DNA from: an uncultured bacterium
GTDB lineage: Bacteria; Patescibacteriota; Microgenomatia; UBA1400; UBA12108
DNA: 64,000 nt
Reading direction: 5' to 3'
Assembly: GCA_903945195.1 (NCBI GenBank)
Contig: CAJAUT010000013.1
Location: 11,473 to 75,472, forward strand
The position numbers and the translations under genes are program-made. This document shows positions 3,036-59,848 of the stretch, piece by piece (the stretch's first letter is position 1; the number at the start of each line of letters is the position of its first letter). Below the pieces are notes generated by a model. It searched no databases, was not told the DNA's origin, and saw only the letters and a list, made by a program, of their open reading frames with translations.

Positions 3036-3674
3036 ATGACAATTAGAAAATTGTACGAAAAATATCATGTCATGCCACAGCTTGTGACCCACATGCTTCG
3101 AGTTGGGGCGGTAGGAAAAATTATTGCAGACAACTGGGTGAGTGAGTGTGACATAAAATTTACAACTGATTTGTGTTTGATACATGATATGGGAAATATC
3201 GTGAAATTTGATTTGAGTCAAAAAGAGAATAATAAATTGTTTGGACCAATTGAAAATATAGAAAAATGGAGAGAGATACAAAAATCATACTGGGACAAAT
3301 ATGGCCATGATGCACATGATGCAACCGTGGGGATACTAAATGACGCAGGACTTGGTAGATTTGTTGAGTGCATTACTGAAGAAGAGAAACTTTACTTTGC
3401 AGAAGCTAGTGCGTCTGAACTAGATGAGACAAATGTAGCCACGATAATCATGCTTTATAGTGACTGTAAGGTCACCCCAGGTGGAGTAGTCAGTTATCGG
3501 GAAAGAATTGATGATCTTTCAAAACGCTATGGTGGTGGGAGAACTAAAACATGGTACGACTGGACATATAGATTTGAAAAATGGATGCAGAGTAAAACTA
3601 AAATCGATTTGCAGAGCATAAATGAAGCGATGGTCGAGCCTCTCTTTGACGAACTACTGGATTACCAGATATAA
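3036..3674 (+). CDS. HD-domain phosphohydrolase
   Basis: H...HD metal-binding motif (HMLRV...LIHD). Confidence 0.5.
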   Translation: MTIRKLYEKYHVMPQLVTHMLRVGAVGKIIADNWVSECDIKFTTDLCLIHDMGNIVKFDLSQKENNKLFGPIENIEKWREIQKSYWDKYGHDAHDATVGILNDAGLGRFVECITEEEKLYFAEASASELDETNVATIIMLYSDCKVTPGGVVSYRERIDDLSKRYGGGRTKTWYDWTYRFEKWMQSKTKIDLQSINEAMVEPLFDELLDYQI

Positions 3675-12462: not shown

Positions 12463-12492
12463 ATATTGTTCCGATGAATCGATTCAACGGTA
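12463..12492 (-). promoter_or_regulatory. 30-nt leader element containing 12-nt palindrome TGAATCGATTCA, abutting ATG of 11743..12462
   Basis: Near-identical copy at 12946..12975 abutting ATG of the TrpR-like gene. Confidence 0.5.
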
Positions 12493-12945
12493 TTATTTTA
12501 GTTTGCTTTTAATTATTCTAGTTTTATTTCTAAGAGCTTTTTCCTTTGCTAGGTGATGCCAATCGTGATATTTTCCTGGCGGCAACTTGTCTAATATAAC
12601 ATCAATATTGTCAAAAAATGTTTCCCAGTTTTTTTCTTTATTCAATTTTTCTAGACCTAACTTTGTACTCTCGGAGGCATTTTTTAGCCAGCTGTTTACA
12701 CTCATAACTGCTGAGTTGCTAACAAATAAGGTATTTTTGATATGTAGTGCTGAATGTCCTCTCATGAGCAATACCATTATCATAAACCTCTTGCTAAACA
12801 TAATTTTTTCGGTAGGAGTTAAAAAATCATTAAAAAAATGATCAATTGCATCTGAGGATTGCATTTTAGCCACAAAACTACTAAATTCCGTATATATAAG
12901 ATCTCCCATTTCTGGTTGTAGCTGATGTTTTGAGACCTGTGTCAT
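12493..12945 (-). CDS. TrpR-like (YerC/YecD family) DNA-binding protein; start at ATG 12945 rather than TTG 12957
   Basis: FLTPTEKIMFSKRFMIMVLLMRG...VSNSAV resembles the Trp repressor/YerC helix-turn-helix. Confidence 0.45.
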   Translation of the reverse strand: MTQVSKHQLQPEMGDLIYTEFSSFVAKMQSSDAIDHFFNDFLTPTEKIMFSKRFMIMVLLMRGHSALHIKNTLFVSNSAVMSVNSWLKNASESTKLGLEKLNKEKNWETFFDNIDVILDKLPPGKYHDWHHLAKEKALRNKTRIIKSKLK

Positions 12946-12975
12946 AAAATGTTCCAATGAATCGATTCAACGGTA
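12946..12975 (-). promoter_or_regulatory. second copy of palindrome-bearing leader element (TGAATCGATTCA) abutting ATG
   Basis: 27/30 identity with 12463..12492 including the spacing to the ATGAC start. Confidence 0.5.
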
Positions 12976-13031
12976 TAAAATTACTGTATTAGTTACATGA
13001 TACACTCCTTGCCCTGTGGTAGACTAGCTTT

Positions 13032-41458: not shown

Positions 41459-42247
41459 TTAAACGATCTGAAACAATGAGGGTACAGTCAAAATAGAACA
41501 ACCGTCCTGTGTAACCATGACGGTTTCTTCGTGTACGGCTGAAAGTGTACCATCTTTAACGGAGATTGTCCAGCCATCTTCCTCGAGTATGAGCTTGGGA
41601 TTGCCCTCGACGTAGATGATCTCTATTGCTAGTGTTTGACCTAGTTTGATGATAGGAGTTTTCTCTTTAGGACCGAGTACCACATTTGAGATCATAGGGT
41701 CTTCGTGGAGTTCTTTGCCCACCCCATGACCTGTGAGCTCACGAGTGGCACGATATCCATACTTTTTGAGGGTGGATTCCATAGCTTCTGAGATATCTCC
41801 GATATAACCACCTGGTTTGACTGCGGCGATGGCGTTTTTGAGGCCTTCTAGACCGGCTTTTAAAAACTTATCTTTGGAAGCAGTCGAGGTCCCGACGATT
41901 TTAGAAAAAGCTGCATCGGTATGGTAGCCTTTGTAAAATACGCCTACGTCGACTGTGACTAGGTCACCGTCCGCAAAAGGAACGGTGGATGTGGGGATGC
42001 CGTGGACGATGCCTTCGTTGATATTGATACAAGTGGCCCAGCGATAGCCTGGAACTTTGGTAAAAGAGAGCTCCCCCCCTTCTGATTTAATCAATTCTCT
42101 GGCTTTAAACTCGACCTGGGTAGGAGTAATACCGACAACCGTGAAATCGTAAAGAGCAGCTCTAACTCTGCCTAGCATGGCTCCACCGATGGTCATGGCC
42201 TCGATTTGATTCATCTTATTTGCTAGCCTGGGTAAGGATATCGGCAA
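41459..42247 (-). CDS. map: methionine aminopeptidase type I
   Basis: Pita-bread fold metal ligand pattern (D..D..H..E..E). Confidence 0.85.
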   Translation of the reverse strand: MPISLPRLANKMNQIEAMTIGGAMLGRVRAALYDFTVVGITPTQVEFKARELIKSEGGELSFTKVPGYRWATCININEGIVHGIPTSTVPFADGDLVTVDVGVFYKGYHTDAAFSKIVGTSTASKDKFLKAGLEGLKNAIAAVKPGGYIGDISEAMESTLKKYGYRATRELTGHGVGKELHEDPMISNVVLGPKEKTPIIKLGQTLAIEIIYVEGNPKLILEEDGWTISVKDGTLSAVHEETVMVTQDGCSILTVPSLFQIV

Positions 42248-54108: not shown

Positions 54109-56235
54109 TTACTTGTTTTCTTTATTAATAATTTTGTCAGCAATGTTGCTTGGGACGGGGTCGTAATGGCTCATTTCCATGTACGAACTGGCTCGACCCT
54201 GGGTCATGCTTCTAAGTATTGTAACATAGCGAGATAGCTCAGACAAGGGAACAATGGCGTTGATCACGCGCACATTTCCTCTTTGGCTGGTACCTAATAC
54301 TTGACCACGTTTACTAGAGATATCGCCGATCACATCTCCCATGAAATCTTCGGGCGTGGTGATCTCTAGCTTCATGATTGGTTCTAAGATGATTGGGGTA
54401 GCTTGTCTCACGGCGGATTGGATGGCCATAGAACCTGCGATCTTGAAGGCAATTTCACTCGAGTCGACATCGTGGAACGAACCATCGTAAAGGGTGACCT
54501 CTATATCAACCAAGTTGAAGCCGGCAATAATACCGTTTTCTAGGGCTTCTCTGACACCCTTTTCAACTGGGGTGATGAATTCTTTAGGAATGACACCACC
54601 AACGATGGCGTTGACAAATTTGACACCTTCACCACGTGGAAGAGGTTTGATACGGAGATAACAATGACCATATTGACCACGACCACCTGATTGCTTGATG
54701 TATTTACCTTCGGCATCGGCGTCTTTTGTGATGGTTTCGCGGTAGGCAACCTGTGGATTACCCACATTGGCGTCTACGTTGAACTCGCGCTTCATGCGGT
54801 CGACGATGATTTCTAGATGTAGTTCGCCCATGCCAGCGATCAAGGTCTGACCAGTTTCTTGGTTGGTGCGGATCTTGAAGGTAGGATCTTCTTCGGCTAA
54901 TCTAGCAAGAGCCATACCCATCTTTTCCTGATCGGCTTTGGTTTTTGGTTCGATAGAGAGTGAGATAACTGGCTCGGCAAAAGAGATACCTTCGAGCATG
55001 ATTGGATGGTCTGGAACACAGAGAGTGTCGCCGGTGCGCGTATCTTTCATGCCTACGACACCTACGATCTCACCTGCAACTGCCTCTGGTACTTCTTCGC
55101 GATCATTAGCGTGCATTAAGACGAGACGTCCGACGCGCTCGGTCTTGTCTCTTGTGGCATTGTAGATATAGGAGCCACTTGTGATCTTGCCTGAGTAAAC
55201 GCGGAGATATGTGAGCTTGCCAATGTGTGGATCTGCTTGGATTTTAAAAGACAAGCCTGCAAAAGGTTCTTTGACATCTGGCTTGCGGATAGCTACTTCG
55301 TCGGTACCTGGCACTTTACCTTCGGCTGGAGGAACGTCGAGTGGAGACGGTAGGTAGTCGACGACACCATCAAGTAGTGGCTGGACACCTTTGTTGCGAA
55401 GTGAAGTACCACAATACATAGGTACGAGCTTGTAGGCGATGGTTGCGGCGCGGAGGGCTTTTTTGAGCTCAACGAGAGTTGGGACAACGCCATCTAGATA
55501 TTTCTCAAGGAGAACATCGTCGGTTTCACAGATTTGCTCAATGAGATGAGCGCGCTCACGAGCTACTTCTTCGATCATGTCTTCTGGGATAGGACCTACT
55601 GTGTAAGCTGCGCCTGTTTCGTCGCCGGCCCAGATGACTGATTGCTCTTCAAGTAGCATGACGACGCCCTTGAAGGAATTTTCGGCGCCAATTGGATAGG
55701 TGACGATCGCGGTATGGGCGCCTAGTTTTTCTTCGACGTCGGCAAGGGTGTGCTTGAAGTCGGCACCCATCTTGTCCATTTTGTTGACGAAACAGATACG
55801 AGGCACTTTATATTTGTCTGCTTGGCGCCAGACAGTTTCGGATTGGGACTGGACACCTTCTTCGGCATCTAGCACTGTGACACCACCATCTAGCACGCGC
55901 AGACTACGCTCTACTTCGGCGGTGAAGTCGACGTGTCCTGGTGTGTCGATCAAGTTGATGCGATATTGGTCGGTAAAGAGAGATTTGGGGAGTTTGGGTG
56001 TCCAGAAAGTGGTGGTAGCGGCGGAGACGATTGTGATACCGCGCTCTTTTTCTTGCTCCATCCAGTCCATCTGGGTATTACCATCATCGATGTCACCAAT
56101 CTTGTAGGACTTGCCAGTGTAGAAAAGGATGCGTTCTGAGGTTGTGGTTTTACCCGCGTCGATGTGGGCGATGATGCCGATATTGCGGATTTTATCCATT
56201 GCTAGTTGACGATCTTGTGTTTTGACGATGGCCAT
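54109..56235 (-). CDS. fusA: elongation factor G
   Basis: [19 protein letters not shown]-motifs; five-domain length. Confidence 0.9.
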
Positions 56236-56327
56236 ATAGATTTAATCCTAAATCTTAAATTCTCAAATTCTCAAGTTAAGAGAGCTTTGAGCGACAAATA
56301 ATTACTCAAACTAATGAGGCAGGGTGT

Positions 56328-56357
56328 ATTGTACTCTATACTCAGGCACTTGAGCAA
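56328..56357 (-). promoter_or_regulatory. candidate fusA-tuf promoter (TTGCTC, 18-nt spacer, TACAAT)
   Basis: Read on minus strand in the spacer between the small ORF and fusA. Confidence 0.35.
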
Positions 56358-56369
56358 GAGATCTGGGAG

Positions 56370-56546
56370 TTACTCGGCTGCGTTCTTCACGGCTTCTTCC
56401 TCTAAAAATTGAGCTCGTGCTCGTGCGTTCTTAGCATCTTCCGTAAGTCCATCTTTTTCCGCCAATTTTGCTGTCAAGATCAAATCGGCATGCTGATCTA
56501 CCACGAGAGTGGTTGGTGTTGCTGTAACTGCAGTCTCTACTACCAT
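56370..56546 (-). CDS. small protein (58 aa) with strong Shine-Dalgarno (GGAGGA, 7 nt spacing); not in ORF track
   Basis: MVVETAVTATPTTLVVDQHADLILTAKLAEKDGLTEDAKNARARAQFLEEEAVKNAAE; own promoter 56579..56607. Confidence 0.45.
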   Translation of the reverse strand: MVVETAVTATPTTLVVDQHADLILTAKLAEKDGLTEDAKNARARAQFLEEEAVKNAAE

Positions 56547-56578
56547 AATTCTTCCTCCAATTTATTAATCTAAAGAGG

Positions 56579-56607
56579 ATTATCGAGAGAGAGAGAGAGT
56601 TTGTCAA
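56579..56607 (-). promoter_or_regulatory. strong sigma70-like promoter TTGACA, 17-nt spacer, GATAAT whose spacer is almost entirely a (CT)7 microsatellite
   Basis: -35 at 56602..56607, -10 at 56579..56584, repeat 56585..56599 (GA)7G on the plus strand. Confidence 0.5.
56585..56599. repeat. (GA)7G dinucleotide microsatellite forming the promoter spacer
   Basis: gagagagagagagag. Confidence 0.9.
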
Positions 56608-56640
56608 ATTGATAGGGAAAAACAAGGTTCGGAACTTTGT

Positions 56641-57441
56641 TTATTTAAGAAAATTTTTCTTAGTGACGATGGATTTGCCTAGGCGGGTTTCTAGAGCTGT
56701 GCGGGCGTCGCCAGCGATCTTGCCACCAGCCACAGCATCAGATTTGAGTTTTGGATAACCTTTTGAGTCCTCGGTACGATGGATCTCGGTAGTGGCGCGC
56801 TCGCCGAGCATGGTAAAGATGAGCTCAAGATCGTCCATGTGGTCACGGAGATTTTGATGTTTGAGCGATTTGATCTTTCGATATTCGCTCGGCGTCACTC
56901 CAAAAGTAGCTTTGCTGATCTCGGCAGTTAAAATCTCATATTCTCTACCCTCGTTGGCTCCGCGGTCCTTCCACTCTTGTGTTAACTCTTCCCGAATTGC
57001 GATGCCACGCATCCTTTTCTCGATCCAACTGTCTGGATACCCCTTGGCTTTATATAGTGCTCTGGTGCGCTTGGTGGCAAGCTCGGGGTCTTCGATCTCC
57101 TGAATCCGCTCGTAGCCAACTTTTGCAAGCCAGCGTTTGAAAGGCTCGGCTTTTGGTGAAGGGATGGACTGGATGATGCGAAAAATACCTTCTGTATTTG
57201 CACAAACAATATTTTGCACTCCGCCGGCAGTTTTGATTGGAAGGGGGTGTTCAATTTGAACCCACCCTTTGAATAACTCTTCATCTCGATTTAACATGTT
57301 CTGGAGATATTGCTTTGGGTTTTGTGAATCAGTTAATGCAGCAATTACATCAACAATCACAAACCACCATTCATTTTTATAAATAGTTTTTCGAATTTCT
57401 TTTTGATGGAAGATGGCTATACGAGTCTCTGAGTCTGTCAT
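56641..57441 (-). CDS. Bro-N domain / DinD-like (DNA-damage-inducible protein D-like) protein; ATG 57441 preferred over TTG 57459
   Basis: N-terminal Bro-N-like pattern (IAIFHQKEIRKTIYKNEWWFVIVDVIAAL); C-terminal similarity to E. coli DinD (NLRDHM..EL...E...). Confidence 0.5.
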   Translation of the reverse strand: MTDSETRIAIFHQKEIRKTIYKNEWWFVIVDVIAALTDSQNPKQYLQNMLNRDEELFKGWVQIEHPLPIKTAGGVQNIVCANTEGIFRIIQSIPSPKAEPFKRWLAKVGYERIQEIEDPELATKRTRALYKAKGYPDSWIEKRMRGIAIREELTQEWKDRGANEGREYEILTAEISKATFGVTPSEYRKIKSLKHQNLRDHMDDLELIFTMLGERATTEIHRTEDSKGYPKLKSDAVAGGKIAGDARTALETRLGKSIVTKKNFLK

Positions 57442-57461
57442 ATTTCCATGATCCCCCAATG

Positions 57462-57488
57462 TAACACGAATGTCAATATGTGTATAAT
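57462..57488. promoter_or_regulatory. divergent promoter region: minus-strand ATTGACATTCGTGT module (leaderless geometry for 56641..57441) and plus-strand perfect TATAAT (57483..57488) for tgt
   Basis: Third instance of the TTGACATTCG module; -10 GATCAT ends 7 nt before ATG 57441. Confidence 0.4.
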
Positions 57489-57532
57489 CTCAAGATATCC
57501 CCCTTCGTTCTGGGGGAACTACGGAGGAACAC

Positions 57533-58678
57533 GTGCAAGATAATTTTAGAATGTTAAATGGGCAGACACTGCCATATCCACTGTTTTTCCCGGATGCTAC
57601 GAGGGGTGAGGTAAGACAGCTGACATTTGAGGATGTAAAAATGGTTGGGTTACCAGGGATACTCGTAAATACCTTTCATCTACTGAGACTAGTGGGGACA
57701 GAGAAAACCGTGGCAGCTGGTGGAATACATAAATACCTGGGATGGGACGGCGCTATGATATCTGACTCTGGAGGATTTCAGGTAATGTCGATCGCCAAGA
57801 AATATGGGGGAAACAGCACTGTGACGGATGAGGGTGTGACATTCACTCTCGACGGCATTGATCATCATTTCTCCCCCGAAGATTCAATTAAATATCAGAT
57901 GGCGATGGGGACTGACCTAATGGTGGTGCTAGATGACTTCACCCCACCGGATGCCACACATGAAGAAGCGGAGGTCACGGTAAATAGGACGACACTTTGG
58001 GCAAAGAGATGTAAGGAAGAATTCAACAGGCTGCAAAGTTCCGATCACTCGCCTAAAATCACGCAAGGATCGGAACTAGGGAACAAAAGACCTTATCTGA
58101 TTGGGGTGGTACAGGGAGGAGAATACGAAGACCTGAGACTAAAGAGCATTAAAGAGCTGATGGAAATTGGGTTTGATGGGTACGGTTATGGAGGATTCCC
58201 CATGAAAGATGGGAAATTTGATGAGGCAATGGCAAAGTTTATGGCGGACAATTTGCCAAAAGATACCGTATTGTATGGCCTAGGAATAGGTAAACCAGAT
58301 GATATTGTGAAATGCGTGAACCTAGGATGGCAGATATTTGATTGTGTCCTACCAACAAGGGACGCCCGCCACGGACGGCTTTATGTATATACCAATGAAC
58401 CTGCCCGCAGTGCTTACAGCACAGCTGTTGCAGGCGGGTCGATTCAACGGATCAATGTGCAAAAAGATGGATTTTATGAATATTACAACCCTAGACAGGC
58501 GTTACATCTCGAAGAAACTGGGCCGGTTAGTAGTGCGTGTGATTGCGAACTGTGCACGAGTTTGAGCCGCAAAGAATTTGCTACCATGTGGAGAGCGCGA
58601 GATGAAAAAGTGCTGCGACTAGCCACGATCCATAACCTTAGGTTTTATGCGATACTGATGGAAAAATTGAGGAAATGA
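57533..58678 (+). CDS. tgt: queuine tRNA-ribosyltransferase (GTG start with GGAGGA Shine-Dalgarno)
   Basis: DSGGFQ, LMVVLDDFTPP, VQGG, GFDGYGYGG, FDCVLPTRDARHG, CDCELC...H zinc site; about 28-aa lineage-specific insertion before the zinc site. Confidence 0.8.
   Translation: MQDNFRMLNGQTLPYPLFFPDATRGEVRQLTFEDVKMVGLPGILVNTFHLLRLVGTEKTVAAGGIHKYLGWDGAMISDSGGFQVMSIAKKYGGNSTVTDEGVTFTLDGIDHHFSPEDSIKYQMAMGTDLMVVLDDFTPPDATHEEAEVTVNRTTLWAKRCKEEFNRLQSSDHSPKITQGSELGNKRPYLIGVVQGGEYEDLRLKSIKELMEIGFDGYGYGGFPMKDGKFDEAMAKFMADNLPKDTVLYGLGIGKPDDIVKCVNLGWQIFDCVLPTRDARHGRLYVYTNEPARSAYSTAVAGGSIQRINVQKDGFYEYYNPRQALHLEETGPVSSACDCELCTSLSRKEFATMWRARDEKVLRLATIHNLRFYAILMEKLRK
58399..58440. repeat. 42-nt repeat, exact copy of 11..52, in-frame inside tgt (encodes EPARSAYSTAVAGGS)
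   Basis: Direct comparison. Confidence 0.8.
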
Positions 58679-58690
58679 TAAGATAAAAAT

Positions 58691-58999
58691 ATGGTAGAGA
58701 TAATTGCGATTGTAGTGGCACTATGGCTACTTGGGGTGATAAATATCCCATGGCTCACTATGCCCCACTTCCCCGTTTTTTCTGTGCTTGGTTATAGCGT
58801 GACTATCCAGAGACTCCTGATCTTTGGGATTGTCATCTGGTTGGCATCGAGCTTGGGATCGCCTTTTCGCCAGATGCTGTGGGTATTTTTTATCTTATGG
58901 CTCCTGTCGACACTCGGAATAATAGGGACAATCGCGATGGGGACTTTGATTCTTGTTTCGATTGTGGTGGGACTGATACTTTCGGTCGTGCAAAAATAA
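58691..58999 (+). CDS. small hydrophobic membrane protein (3 TM)
   Basis: Hydrophobicity; 12 nt after tgt. Confidence 0.4.
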   Translation: MVEIIAIVVALWLLGVINIPWLTMPHFPVFSVLGYSVTIQRLLIFGIVIWLASSLGSPFRQMLWVFFILWLLSTLGIIGTIAMGTLILVSIVVGLILSVVQK

Positions 59000-59003
59000 T
59001 ATT

Positions 59004-59767
59004 TCACAAAACTAGATTGGGAAATGATAATTCAAGATTTTCGTTGATTTGACGACCGGTGAGGCGATATACCTTATAGCCGAGACCATAGAGATATTGA
59101 TCTTTTCTCTTATCTCTAATCTTACTTTGAGGTCGTAAATGCCAAAACTCGCCATCGCACTCGATAATTGTCTTTGTGCCGGTGAGTAAAAAGTCGGCTC
59201 GATATTTGGCAAATTTCACTTCCTGTTGAAATTCAATGTGTTTACTCTCGAGATATTTACGAACTTTTTCTTCGAGAGATGACTCGCCATTGAATTTGAT
59301 AAAACATTCCCGCGAGCAAAATTTGCCCCTTCCGGTATTGATCACCGAATTAGGAATGGTAAATTCCTGATGACAATTGGCACACTTTTTGGTGACAAAC
59401 TCTGACATACCAAGGTCGTGACATTTTTTAGAACAGTATATGGTGTGAACGGCCACGGCTGGTGAACGCTTTACTGCCTTGCCACACTGTTGACAAATTT
59501 TAGTGACAAGATGATCTCTGTTTACTTTGTTCTGGCACGTGCGTCTGCAATAAATTCCGAATCCGTGGCGAACTTGGGTGGGCGATGGGATAAATGTCTT
59601 TTTACAGATAAACATCTCTTTTCGAACTTTAATCTTGTCGAGTTATGGTAACAAGGAAGCGAGCAATAATTGGTTGGTCGGACAAGATATGGCATTTTTA
59701 TAAAATCTTTACCACATCCATCACATTTAACTTGTTCTCTATATCCAATGGGACTGACTTTACGCAT
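59004..59767 (-). pseudogene. frameshifted gene: N-terminal tandem Cys4 zinc-ribbon repeats plus C-terminal DUF559 (Vsr/PD-(D/E)xK-like) endonuclease domain
   Basis: ORFs 59522..59767 and 59004..59615 overlap out of frame; a 1-nt deletion near 59612 restores a continuous K-x-C-x2-C-G-K-x-F...Y-C-S-x2-C repeat; YRADFLLTGTKTIIECDGEFWH matches the DUF559 core. Confidence 0.5.
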
Positions 59768-59848
59768 ATTATTCGGTATCTACGTATTAGTGTAGAACCA
59801 AATAATATTGCTGTCAATAAATTGCTTGAAAGTGAAATTAGCTTGATC

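What the first reader, a model, noticed from the sequence alone, without database searches (positions are those of the whole stretch)
56546..56607. Promoter whose 17-nt spacer is a (CT)7 microsatellite, driving a small unannotated ORF
On the minus strand TTGACA (56602..56607) and GATAAT (56579..56584) are separated by exactly 17 nt, of which 15 are (CT)7C. Gain or loss of one CT unit by slipped-strand mispairing would change the spacer to 15 or 19 nt and switch the promoter off. This is the architecture of classical phase-variable promoters. Twenty-six nt downstream, a GGAGGA Shine-Dalgarno precedes a 58-aa ORF (56370..56546) that the ORF track missed.
Basis: seen in the sequence. Interest (0 to 1): 0.6.

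Follow-up and report, generated by a model that had tools for sequence, protein, structure and literature searches.

The report
CT-microsatellite promoter heading a small gene
A near-consensus promoter whose 17-base spacer is a (CT)7 repeat is real, drives a genuine 58-codon gene in an uncultured Collierbacteria-like bacterium, and recurs in five related lineages with spacers of 11 to 21 bases, which fits repeat slippage setting expression, though switching within a population was not shown.

Summary
On the minus strand, TTGACA (56607-56602), a 17-nt spacer AA(CT)7C, GATAAT (56584-56579), GGAGGA and ATG 56546 precede a 58-aa ORF. It is the only dinucleotide repeat of 5 or more units in the 64 kb.

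The ORF is a real gene. Its codon usage matches the host, and it has one syntenic homologue.

The organism is a CPR bacterium (Microgenomates, Collierbacteria-like). Variable gene cassettes sit between tgt and fusA. fusA has its own promoter, P2 (TACAAT, 56333-56328), conserved in all 13 lineages examined. So the CT promoter (P1) is not the fusA promoter.

P1 recurs in five other lineages, upstream of unrelated small ORFan genes. Both hexamers are identical in all six. The flanks are unrelated. The CT-tract spacer is 11, 15, 15, 17, 17 or 21 nt, always differing by an even number.

This pattern is expected for a slippage-tunable, phase-variable-type promoter, and this genome is at the optimal length.

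Not shown: heterogeneity within a lineage. Three lineages with 2-4 assemblies each are invariant. The transcription start and the effect of spacing are also untested. It would be a new member of a known kind. Interest is moderate.

The parts
56618..56640 (-). Terminator-like hairpin after the Bro-N gene: ACAAAGTT-ccg-AACCTTGT followed by a T run
   Evidence: Sequence and fold. The same hairpin precedes P1 or P1' in L089 and L103, and in L103 the stem is a perfect 8 bp (ACAAGGTT/AACCTTGT). The simple terminator scan did not call it.
56602..56607 (-). P1 -35 hexamer TTGACA
   Evidence: It is identical in six lineages. Homology with relatives begins exactly here.
56585..56601 (-). P1 spacer, 17 nt = AA(CT)7C. 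The microsatellite is 56585-56599.
   Evidence: The homologous spacers in relatives are 11, 15, 15, 17 and 21 nt.
56579..56584 (-). P1 -10 hexamer GATAAT
   Evidence: It is identical in six lineages, together with the adjoining (CT)4C.
56547..56572 (-). Predicted 5' UTR (transcription start inferred near 56572-56571) with Shine-Dalgarno GGAGGA at 56558-56553
   Evidence: The start site is inferred from the usual -10 to +1 distance and was not measured. The UTR is nearly identical in L085 and L089.
56370..56546 (-). orf58, a 58-aa acidic protein predicted to form a two-helix hairpin; function unknown
   Evidence: The codon-usage score of 0.21 per codon is at the 41st percentile of real-gene segments and above all 92 spurious ORFs. 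One homologue, P0002 (E 5e-7, 61% identity over residues 15-58), was found among 1.84 billion representatives, and it sits at the syntenic position. AlphaFold gives mean pLDDT 73.6 with helices 11-32 and 35-57. No Pfam, PHROG or PADLOC family matches.
56328..56357 (-). P2, the conserved fusA promoter: TTGCTC (56357-56352), 18-nt spacer, TACAAT (56333-56328)
   Evidence: TACAAT followed by AC..TGCCTCATT is present upstream of fusA in all 13 lineages examined, including those without any cassette.
56295..56319 (-). Conserved fusA leader motif CCTCATTAGTTTGAGTAATTATTTG
54109..56235 (-). fusA (EF-G), first gene of the fusA-tuf-S10 ribosomal gene cluster downstream
   Evidence: Pfam. No terminator lies between orf58 and fusA.
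56641..57441 (-). Upstream cassette gene, a Bro-N domain protein. It belongs to the variable region but is not part of the P1 unit.
   Evidence: Pfam Bro-N, PHROG 15286 and PADLOC candidate PDC-S13 at E 3e-107. Relatives carry other genes at this position.

Best explanation
P1 is a genuine sigma-70-type promoter. It forms the 5' end of a small portable promoter module (TTGACA, CT tract, GATAAT). In Collierbacteria-like CPR bacteria this module heads exchangeable small ORFan genes inserted between tgt and the conserved fusA promoter P2.

The spacer is a CT microsatellite that gains and loses two-base units by slipped-strand mispairing. This moves the two invariant hexamers in and out of the 17-nt register. 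In this genome the tract, AA(CT)7C, gives the optimal 17 nt, so orf58 is predicted to be transcribed from about 56572 and translated from the GGAGGA/ATG. Read-through would add to fusA transcription, which otherwise depends on P2. Lineages with 11, 15 or 21 nt are predicted to be low or off.

Shown here: the architecture; that orf58 is a real gene; the invariant hexamers; the exact boundary of homology at the -35; the even-step length differences confined to the tract; and the independent P2.

Inferred: the transcription start; the dependence of activity on spacing in these organisms; and above all that length changes happen fast enough, and reversibly enough, to count as phase variation rather than slow evolutionary tuning.
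For: The architecture and its improbability by chance come.

Six lineages carry the module:
- window: AA(CT)7C, 17 nt
- L085: AATCACG(TC)7, 21 nt
- L086: AATC(CT)5C, 15 nt
- L089: AATCCCCC(CT)4C, 17 nt
- L090/L091: AATC(CT)5C, 15 nt
- L103/L104: TT(CT)4C, 11 nt

All 12 hexamer positions are identical in the six lineages. The upstream 30 nt are only 31-37% identical, and fusA of the five other lineages is 82.7-89.2% identical to the window's. So the hexamers are kept by selection even where the spacing looks non-functional. No alternative -35 exists at 16-18 nt in the 11-, 15- or 21-nt lineages.

Homologous promoters without a repeat (P1' in L087 and L089) keep a canonical 16-nt spacer. P2 keeps 17-18 nt.

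Between the window and L085, the block from P1 to the Shine-Dalgarno sequence is almost identical, while the ORF core is only 70% identical.

The genes downstream of P1 are intact and unrelated to one another.

In 1.0 Mb of fetched loci, (CT)5 or longer occurs only in P1 modules, plus one unrelated case.

Precedent: changes in spacer repeat number control hifA/hifB and porA (review PMC3899988).
Against: No variation was seen within any lineage. L001, L002, L003 and L084 are 100% identical to the window, so they are probably the same population. L090 and L091 differ by 6 SNPs in 9127 nt but carry the same tract, and L103 equals L104.

L086 and L090 are about 84% identical in fusA yet share exactly the same 15-nt spacer. 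So the tract can stay stable for a long time, or 15 nt is itself functional.

Tracts of 4.5-5.5 units are short for rapid slippage. The 11- and 21-nt states are 2-3 units from 17.

The window has only one notable repeat in 64 kb, so there is no genome-wide pattern of contingency loci.

The controlled genes are cytoplasmic-looking ORFans, not surface or restriction-modification genes.

Promoter spacing rules have not been measured in CPR bacteria. I apply them by analogy with E. coli and B. subtilis.

The same-parity argument is weak statistically, at roughly 1 in 8.
Confidence: 0.5

Rival explanations
1. P1 is an ordinary constitutive promoter. The CT tract is tolerated spacer sequence that changes length only rarely over evolutionary time. 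This would be slow tuning, or decay in lineages where the cassette gene matters little. There would be no meaningful switching within a population.
For: The tract is identical in every pair or set of assemblies from one lineage. Diverged L086 and L090 have identical 15-nt spacers. L089 and L085 have point-interrupted tracts, which stabilise repeats. The window has no other contingency-type repeats.
Against: Four of six lineages have spacings (11, 15, 15, 21) that should cripple a sigma-70 promoter, yet they keep perfect hexamers and intact downstream ORFs. Simple decay should also erode the hexamers. Repeat-free homologues of the promoter keep a canonical 16-nt spacer.
Confidence: 0.35
2. P1 is chiefly the promoter of the fusA-tuf-S10 ribosomal gene cluster, needed because the str operon was split by inserted DNA. 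On this view orf58 is incidental.
For: S12-S7 and fusA are separated by about 3.6 kb that includes the opposite-strand tgt. No terminator lies between orf58 and fusA. P1 is a much better consensus match than P2.
Against: P2 (TACAAT plus the leader) is conserved upstream of fusA in all 13 lineages, including L088 and L098, where tgt abuts fusA with no cassette and no P1. P1 is absent from 5 of the 11 lineages in which the region could be read. An essential operon would not tolerate 11-21-nt spacers.
Confidence: 0.06
3. The conserved core (TTGACA, CT tract, GATAAT) is not primarily a promoter. It would be a junction or recombination site, or a protein-binding or H-DNA-forming element, at which cassettes are exchanged.
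For: The core is the only sequence shared between cassettes whose flanks are unrelated on both sides. The locus is a cassette hotspot, with REP-like palindromes, a duplicated P2 flanking the cassette in L089, and Y1 transposase genes nearby. The (CT)4C next to GATAAT is invariant.
Against: The two conserved blocks are exactly a consensus -35 and a near-consensus -10. They are always oriented toward an ORF with a ribosome-binding site, and are often preceded by a terminator hairpin. No dyad symmetry or recombinase-type arms are evident. A viral-contig scan for the core found nothing.
Confidence: 0.06
4. The match is a coincidence: a microsatellite that happens to lie between hexamer-like words.
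For: Consensus scans alone give 2.7 +/- 1.4 weak matches in this 1.8-kb region.
Against: The chance of an 11/12 match bracketing the only repeat is about 1e-4. The same arrangement recurs in five other lineages.
Confidence: 0.01

Closest known systems
Haemophilus influenzae hifA/hifB fimbrial promoter with a (TA)n repeat between -35 and -10
   Same: A dinucleotide repeat forms the promoter spacer. Each unit gained or lost changes the hexamer spacing by 2 bp and so changes transcription (PMC3899988).
   Different: The hif repeat is TA rather than CT. It lies in overlapping divergent promoters that control surface fimbriae of a pathogen, and switching there was measured. Here the promoter is unidirectional, controls cytoplasmic-looking ORFans in an uncultured CPR bacterium, and switching has not been measured.
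Neisseria meningitidis porA (poly-G) promoter spacer, with similar promoter repeats in Bordetella pertussis and Mycoplasma hyorhinis
   Same: A simple sequence repeat lies inside or next to the -35/-10 spacer. Tract length sets promoter strength, giving graded or on/off expression (PMC3899988). M. hyorhinis is also a reduced-genome bacterium.
   Different: The porA tract is a homopolymer with 1-bp steps. The genes controlled in these systems are outer-membrane or surface proteins and variable lipoproteins.
Helicobacter pylori CT dinucleotide repeats in outer-membrane protein genes (oipA, sabA, hopZ); from my own knowledge, not checked here
   Same: The repeat unit is the same (CT), the copy numbers are similar (about 6-11), and the mechanism is slipped-strand mispairing.
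   Different: Those repeats lie inside the coding sequence and act by frameshifting translation, not by changing promoter spacing.
Split str operon (rpsL-rpsG-fusA-tuf) with an internal fusA promoter
   Same: The gene order S12-S7 ... EF-G-EF-Tu-S10 is retained. fusA is served by its own conserved promoter P2.
   Different: In this clade, tgt and variable cassettes are inserted between rpsG and fusA. P1 belongs to the cassette, not to the operon.

Membership tests
Sigma-70-type promoter | -35 and -10 hexamers close to TTGACA/TATAAT, separated by 16-18 nt | tested here: met
   TTGACA, 17 nt, GATAAT: 11 of 12 matches.
Sigma-70-type promoter | Lies upstream of a gene, in the right orientation, in non-coding DNA | tested here: met
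   It sits in the 94-nt gap between the Bro-N stop (56641) and the orf58 ATG (56546), after a terminator-like hairpin and before a Shine-Dalgarno sequence.
Sigma-70-type promoter | Hexamers conserved in relatives while surrounding sequence diverges | tested here: met
   All 12 hexamer positions are identical in six lineages. The upstream 30 nt are 31-37% identical.
Sigma-70-type promoter | Mapped transcription start site | not testable with these tools
   No RNA data were available. The start near 56572 is inferred.
Repeat-mediated (slipped-strand) phase-variable promoter, hif/porA type | Simple sequence repeat located between the -35 and -10 hexamers | tested here: met
   (CT)7C fills 15 of the 17 spacer bases.
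Repeat-mediated (slipped-strand) phase-variable promoter, hif/porA type | Tract long enough to slip (commonly taken as about 5-6 or more dinucleotide units; from my own knowledge) | tested here: met
   There are 7.5 units here. Relatives have 4.5-7 units, and some of those are marginal.
Repeat-mediated (slipped-strand) phase-variable promoter, hif/porA type | Repeat number differs at the homologous locus among related strains or lineages | tested here: met
   The spacers are 11, 15, 15, 17, 17 and 21 nt, with pure CT tracts of 4.5 to 7.5 units, in six lineages. These are species-level relatives, not strains.
Repeat-mediated (slipped-strand) phase-variable promoter, hif/porA type | Repeat-number heterogeneity within a clonal population, with reversible high-frequency switching | tested here: inconclusive
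   Only consensus assemblies were available. No difference was seen within three lineages.
Repeat-mediated (slipped-strand) phase-variable promoter, hif/porA type | Expression of the downstream gene changes with repeat number | not testable with these tools
   This needs RNA data or reporter assays.
orf58 small-protein family | Significant sequence homologues exist | tested here: met
   There is one homologue, P0002 (72 aa, E 5e-7), in a syntenic position. Word-indexed searches found no others.
fusA (str operon) promoter | Conserved upstream of fusA across the clade | tested here: not met
   P1 is absent from 5 of the 11 lineages in which the region could be read. P2 (TACAAT) is present in all 13.

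The most novel reading that the evidence does not exclude
CPR (Patescibacteria) bacteria have a contingency locus. A portable promoter with a slippage-prone CT spacer is fused to interchangeable ORFan cassettes at a recombination hotspot between tgt and fusA. Sub-populations would then switch individual accessory genes on and off. These genes may relate to phage defence or host interaction, given the neighbouring Bro-N/PDC-S13-like, toxin-antitoxin and endonuclease genes. This would be the first repeat-based phase variation described in the ultra-small symbiotic bacteria.
Probability: 0.3. Interest if true: 0.7.

Novelty: new member of a known kind. Interest (0 to 1): 0.5.

Why it matters
Promoters and gene regulation in CPR bacteria are almost entirely uncharacterised, because these organisms are rarely cultured. 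My two literature searches found no report of repeat-based phase variation in them.

If the CT tract really toggles this promoter, bet-hedging by slipped-strand mispairing is not confined to host-adapted pathogens. It would also operate in tiny groundwater symbionts.

It would also mark the variable ORFan cassettes beside fusA as genes whose expression is under fluctuating selection.

The six natural variants (11-21 nt) form a ready-made allelic series for testing promoter spacing rules in this phylum.

Independently of that, the comparison pins down the likely housekeeping fusA promoter of the clade. It also shows that orf58 is a real, lineage-restricted gene.

Tried and rejected
- Two exact-match scans of the JGI metagenome contigs, with the ORF-start 39-mer and the conserved 25-nt -10/UTR block, returned nothing. 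That collection seems not to hold these organisms, and the cap is now used.
- A viral-contig scan for the P1 core returned nothing.
- Rfam found no RNA family anywhere in the window.
- Folding of the P1/UTR region and of the orf58-fusA spacer gave no significant structure (z = 0.52 and -1.40).
- Pfam, PHROGs and PADLOC gave nothing credible for orf58 or the other P1-driven proteins.
- The AlphaFold model is a generic helical hairpin, and Foldseek against the PDB gave only non-specific matches with E > 2.
- A search for target-site duplications or terminal inverted repeats around the 56.2-60.4 kb insert found only short, chance-level repeats.
- The nearest genome in the species collection (L004, 86% EF-G identity) ends 271 nt upstream of fusA, so it could not show whether P1 is present.
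- I considered that contigs starting at 56568 reflect repeat heterogeneity. I rejected this because a de Bruijn bubble at the repeat would rejoin inside or at the repeat, not 16 nt downstream. The cause stays unexplained.
- The spacing survey of TTGACA/TATAAT-like pairs showed only a weak peak at 17, and it is too small to define the clade's spacing rule.

Full report
**1. Observation**

The minus strand reads caatTTGACAaaCTCTCTCTCTCTCTCGATAATcctctttagattaataaattGGAGGAagaattATG.
- TTGACA is at 56607-56602.
- The spacer at 56601-56585 is 17 nt, AA(CT)7C.
- GATAAT is at 56584-56579, GGAGGA at 56558-56553 and ATG at 56546.
- The 58-aa ORF ends with TAA at 56372-56370.

The consensus scan scores the site 11 of 12 with a 17-nt spacer. 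Only three sites in the whole window reach 11/12, against 1.37 expected in Markov simulations.

The tract is the only dinucleotide repeat of 5 or more units in 64 kb, and no homopolymer exceeds 8. (CT)6 is expected 0.04 times in shuffles. My arithmetic puts the chance of the lone repeat being bracketed exactly by an 11/12 promoter at about 1e-4.

**2. Local anatomy**

- Upstream, a Bro-N-domain gene ends at 56641. A hairpin ACAAAGTT-ccg-AACCTTGT plus a T run follows at 56640-56618. It resembles a terminator, and it recurs with a perfect stem in front of the homologous promoter in L103.
- Downstream of orf58 there is no terminator.
- A second promoter-like site, P2, lies at TTGCTC (56357-56352), 18 nt, TACAAT (56333-56328). 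A conserved leader (56319-56295) follows, and then the fusA ATG at 56235.

**3. orf58 is a gene**

- Its codon-usage log-odds score is 0.21 per codon. That is the 41st percentile of segments from 59 long genes of the window and above all 92 out-of-frame ORFs. Every other frame scores negative.
- The word-indexed search of 5.8 billion proteins found only the protein itself. A full HMMER scan of 1.84 billion representatives found one true homologue, P0002: 72 aa, 61% identity over residues 15-58, E 5e-7.
- In the 44-codon core, differences fall 12/9/19 by codon position, and 11 codon differences are synonymous.
- The model is a two-helix hairpin with pLDDT 73.6. It has no informative structural or family match. 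Function is unknown.

**4. Organism and context**

- EF-G relatives place the window in the CPR Microgenomates. The closest named relatives are Collierbacteria and Woesebacteria.
- On the minus strand the order is rpoC, S12, S7. Next come a DUF559/Vsr-like gene, a small membrane ORF (+) and tgt (+). Then follow Bro-N, orf58, fusA, tuf and S10.
- Most bacteria in the comparison keep S12-S7-EF-G contiguous.
- Eleven lineages of this clade could be read across the tgt-fusA region. These are the window, L085, and nine lineages whose EF-G is 93-97% identical in protein to the window's (fusA 81-89% identical in nucleotides). In all of them tgt sits divergently upstream of fusA.
- The gap between tgt and fusA varies by lineage:
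  - nothing in L088 and L098;
  - a Bro-N gene or remnant in L092-97 and L102;
  - a Gp49/HTH toxin-antitoxin pair in L085 (an HTH_3 gene in L086);
  - assorted small ORFans in the others.
- P2's TACAAT and the leader AC..TGCCTCATT are present in all 13 lineages examined. P2 is therefore the housekeeping fusA promoter, and P1 belongs to the variable cassette region.

**5. The decisive comparison**

The homologue P0002 lies at the same position in L085, and homology with the window begins exactly at TTGACA. A pattern search of all fetched loci (1.0 Mb), followed by further look-ups, found the P1 module in six lineages:

| Lineage | Spacer | Length | Gene downstream |
|---|---|---|---|
| window | AA(CT)7C | 17 | orf58 |
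| L085 | AATCACG(TC)7 | 21 | orf72 (homologue of orf58) |
| L086 | AATC(CT)5C | 15 | 194 aa |
| L089 | AATCCCCC(CT)4C | 17 | 86 aa |
| L090/L091 | AATC(CT)5C | 15 | 119 aa |
| L103/L104 | TT(CT)4C | 11 | 64 aa |

- TTGACA, GATAAT and the (CT)4C next to the -10 are identical in all six.
- The 30 nt upstream are at random-level identity (0.31-0.37) and come from three unrelated contexts.
- Identity downstream falls from 0.69 to 0.40.
- Apart from the orf58/orf72 pair, the downstream proteins are unrelated to one another.
- All length differences lie in the tract or at its 5' edge, and all are even.
- No lineage with 11, 15 or 21 nt has an alternative -35 at 16-18 nt.
- Homologous promoters without a repeat (P1', TTGACA-16-CATAAT, in L087 and L089) keep a canonical spacing. 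P2 keeps 17-18 nt.
- Between the window and L085, the P1-to-Shine-Dalgarno block differs by one substitution plus the spacer indel. The ORF core is only 70% identical and fusA 89%.

**6. Interpretation**

The hexamers are under selection in every lineage. Homology starts at the -35. The unit always faces an ORF with a ribosome-binding site. P1 is therefore a promoter (my estimate: about 0.9).

Its spacer has changed length repeatedly and only in two-base steps, as microsatellite slippage predicts. By the E. coli/B. subtilis spacing rule (established knowledge, untested in CPR bacteria), 17 nt should be active and 11, 15 and 21 nt weak or silent.

Perfect hexamers and intact ORFs persist in the "mis-spaced" lineages. 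That is what one sees at phase-variable loci caught in the OFF state, and it is hard to reconcile with simple decay. I therefore favour a slippage-tunable, phase-variable-type promoter. This genome would be in the ON register.

What is missing is the rate. All contigs of this strain are identical to the window. L090 and L091 differ by 6 SNPs in 9.1 kb but carry the same tract, and L103 equals L104. Diverged L086 and L090 share the same 15-nt spacer. Slow evolutionary tuning therefore remains a strong rival (0.35, against 0.5 for the favoured model).

**7. Comparison with known systems**

The mechanism proposed is that of the H. influenzae hifA/hifB (TA)n promoter and the N. meningitidis porA poly-G promoter (review PMC3899988). 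Of the defining features:
- repeat in the spacer: met;
- adequate tract length: met;
- variation between lineages: met;
- heterogeneity within a population: inconclusive;
- expression linked to repeat number: untestable here.

I found no report of repeat-based phase variation in CPR bacteria. Four papers mention both terms, and the one I read concerns a coding 9-mer repeat in a Gracilibacterium. If confirmed, this is a new member of a known kind, in a new phylum. Its unusual feature is that one portable promoter serves unrelated cassettes.

**8. Dead ends**

The metagenome and viral DNA scans, Rfam, family and fold searches, and the repeat search for element ends all gave nothing useful. Contigs that begin at 56568 in two assemblies are not explained by repeat heterogeneity and remain unexplained.

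Noticed in passing
window 12468-12493 and 12951-12976; relatives L086 ~2060-2150, L089 ~1195-1270, L090 ~2870-2925, L102 ~3335-3365: A 26-nt palindrome (ATTCCGTTGAATCGATTCATCGGAAT-like) occurs twice in the window, flanking the 154-aa ORF 12493-12957, where 0 copies are expected by chance. It also marks cassette boundaries next to tgt/fusA in relatives. Several relatives carry a Y1 transposase (PF01797) gene beside S7. This may be a REP-like element with a RAYT/IS200-type transposase in CPR genomes.
   Followed up: partly
window 56236-59848 and loci L085-L104: The interval between rpsG and fusA is a hotspot for gene cassettes in this clade. Its contents include Bro-N, Gp49/HTH toxin-antitoxin genes, an acetyltransferase, a DUF559 endonuclease, a Y1 transposase and various ORFans. 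In L089 the P1 cassette is flanked by two copies of about 40 nt of P2 (1080-1120 and 1620-1665). The 97.5%-identical L087 lacks that cassette, which suggests gain or loss by recombination at P2.
   Followed up: partly
window 56641-57441 (-): The Bro-N protein matches the PADLOC candidate defence model PDC-S13 over its full length (E 3e-107) and PHROG 15286 (E 1e-80). The neighbouring DUF559/Vsr-like gene (59004-59615) weakly matches a homing-endonuclease model. The region may resemble a defence island.
   Followed up: no
window 56568 (start of contigs L003 and ERZ1426737): Contigs in two separate assembly records begin at exactly the same base, 11 nt downstream of the -10 hexamer and 16 nt from the repeat. 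The position does not fit a de Bruijn bubble caused by repeat-length variation. The cause (strain variant, coverage drop or shared reads) is unknown.
   Followed up: partly
window 57476-57448 (-) and 37209-37180 (-): Two TTGACA-type promoter matches (10/12) end 7 nt before an ATG (57441 for Bro-N, 37173 for a 176-aa ORF). This would give leaderless mRNAs.
   Followed up: no
window 59616-59760 (-): Upstream of the 203-aa DUF559/zinc-finger ORF, the sequence continues to encode CxxC-type zinc-finger-like repeats. The homologue in L088 is 277 aa. The window copy may be truncated or frameshifted.
   Followed up: no
L095 2045-2080, L097 185-215, L004 190-225: Some relatives carry a short GC-rich hairpin inserted in the fusA leader between the P2 TACAAT and the CCTCATT motif, for example GCCTCGCCGAATAGGCGGGTTGCC. 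It looks like a small mobile or regulatory stem-loop.
   Followed up: no
window 42073-42079: This is the only G/C homopolymer of 7 in the window (C7), inside the ORF 41459-42247. It is probably insignificant.
   Followed up: no
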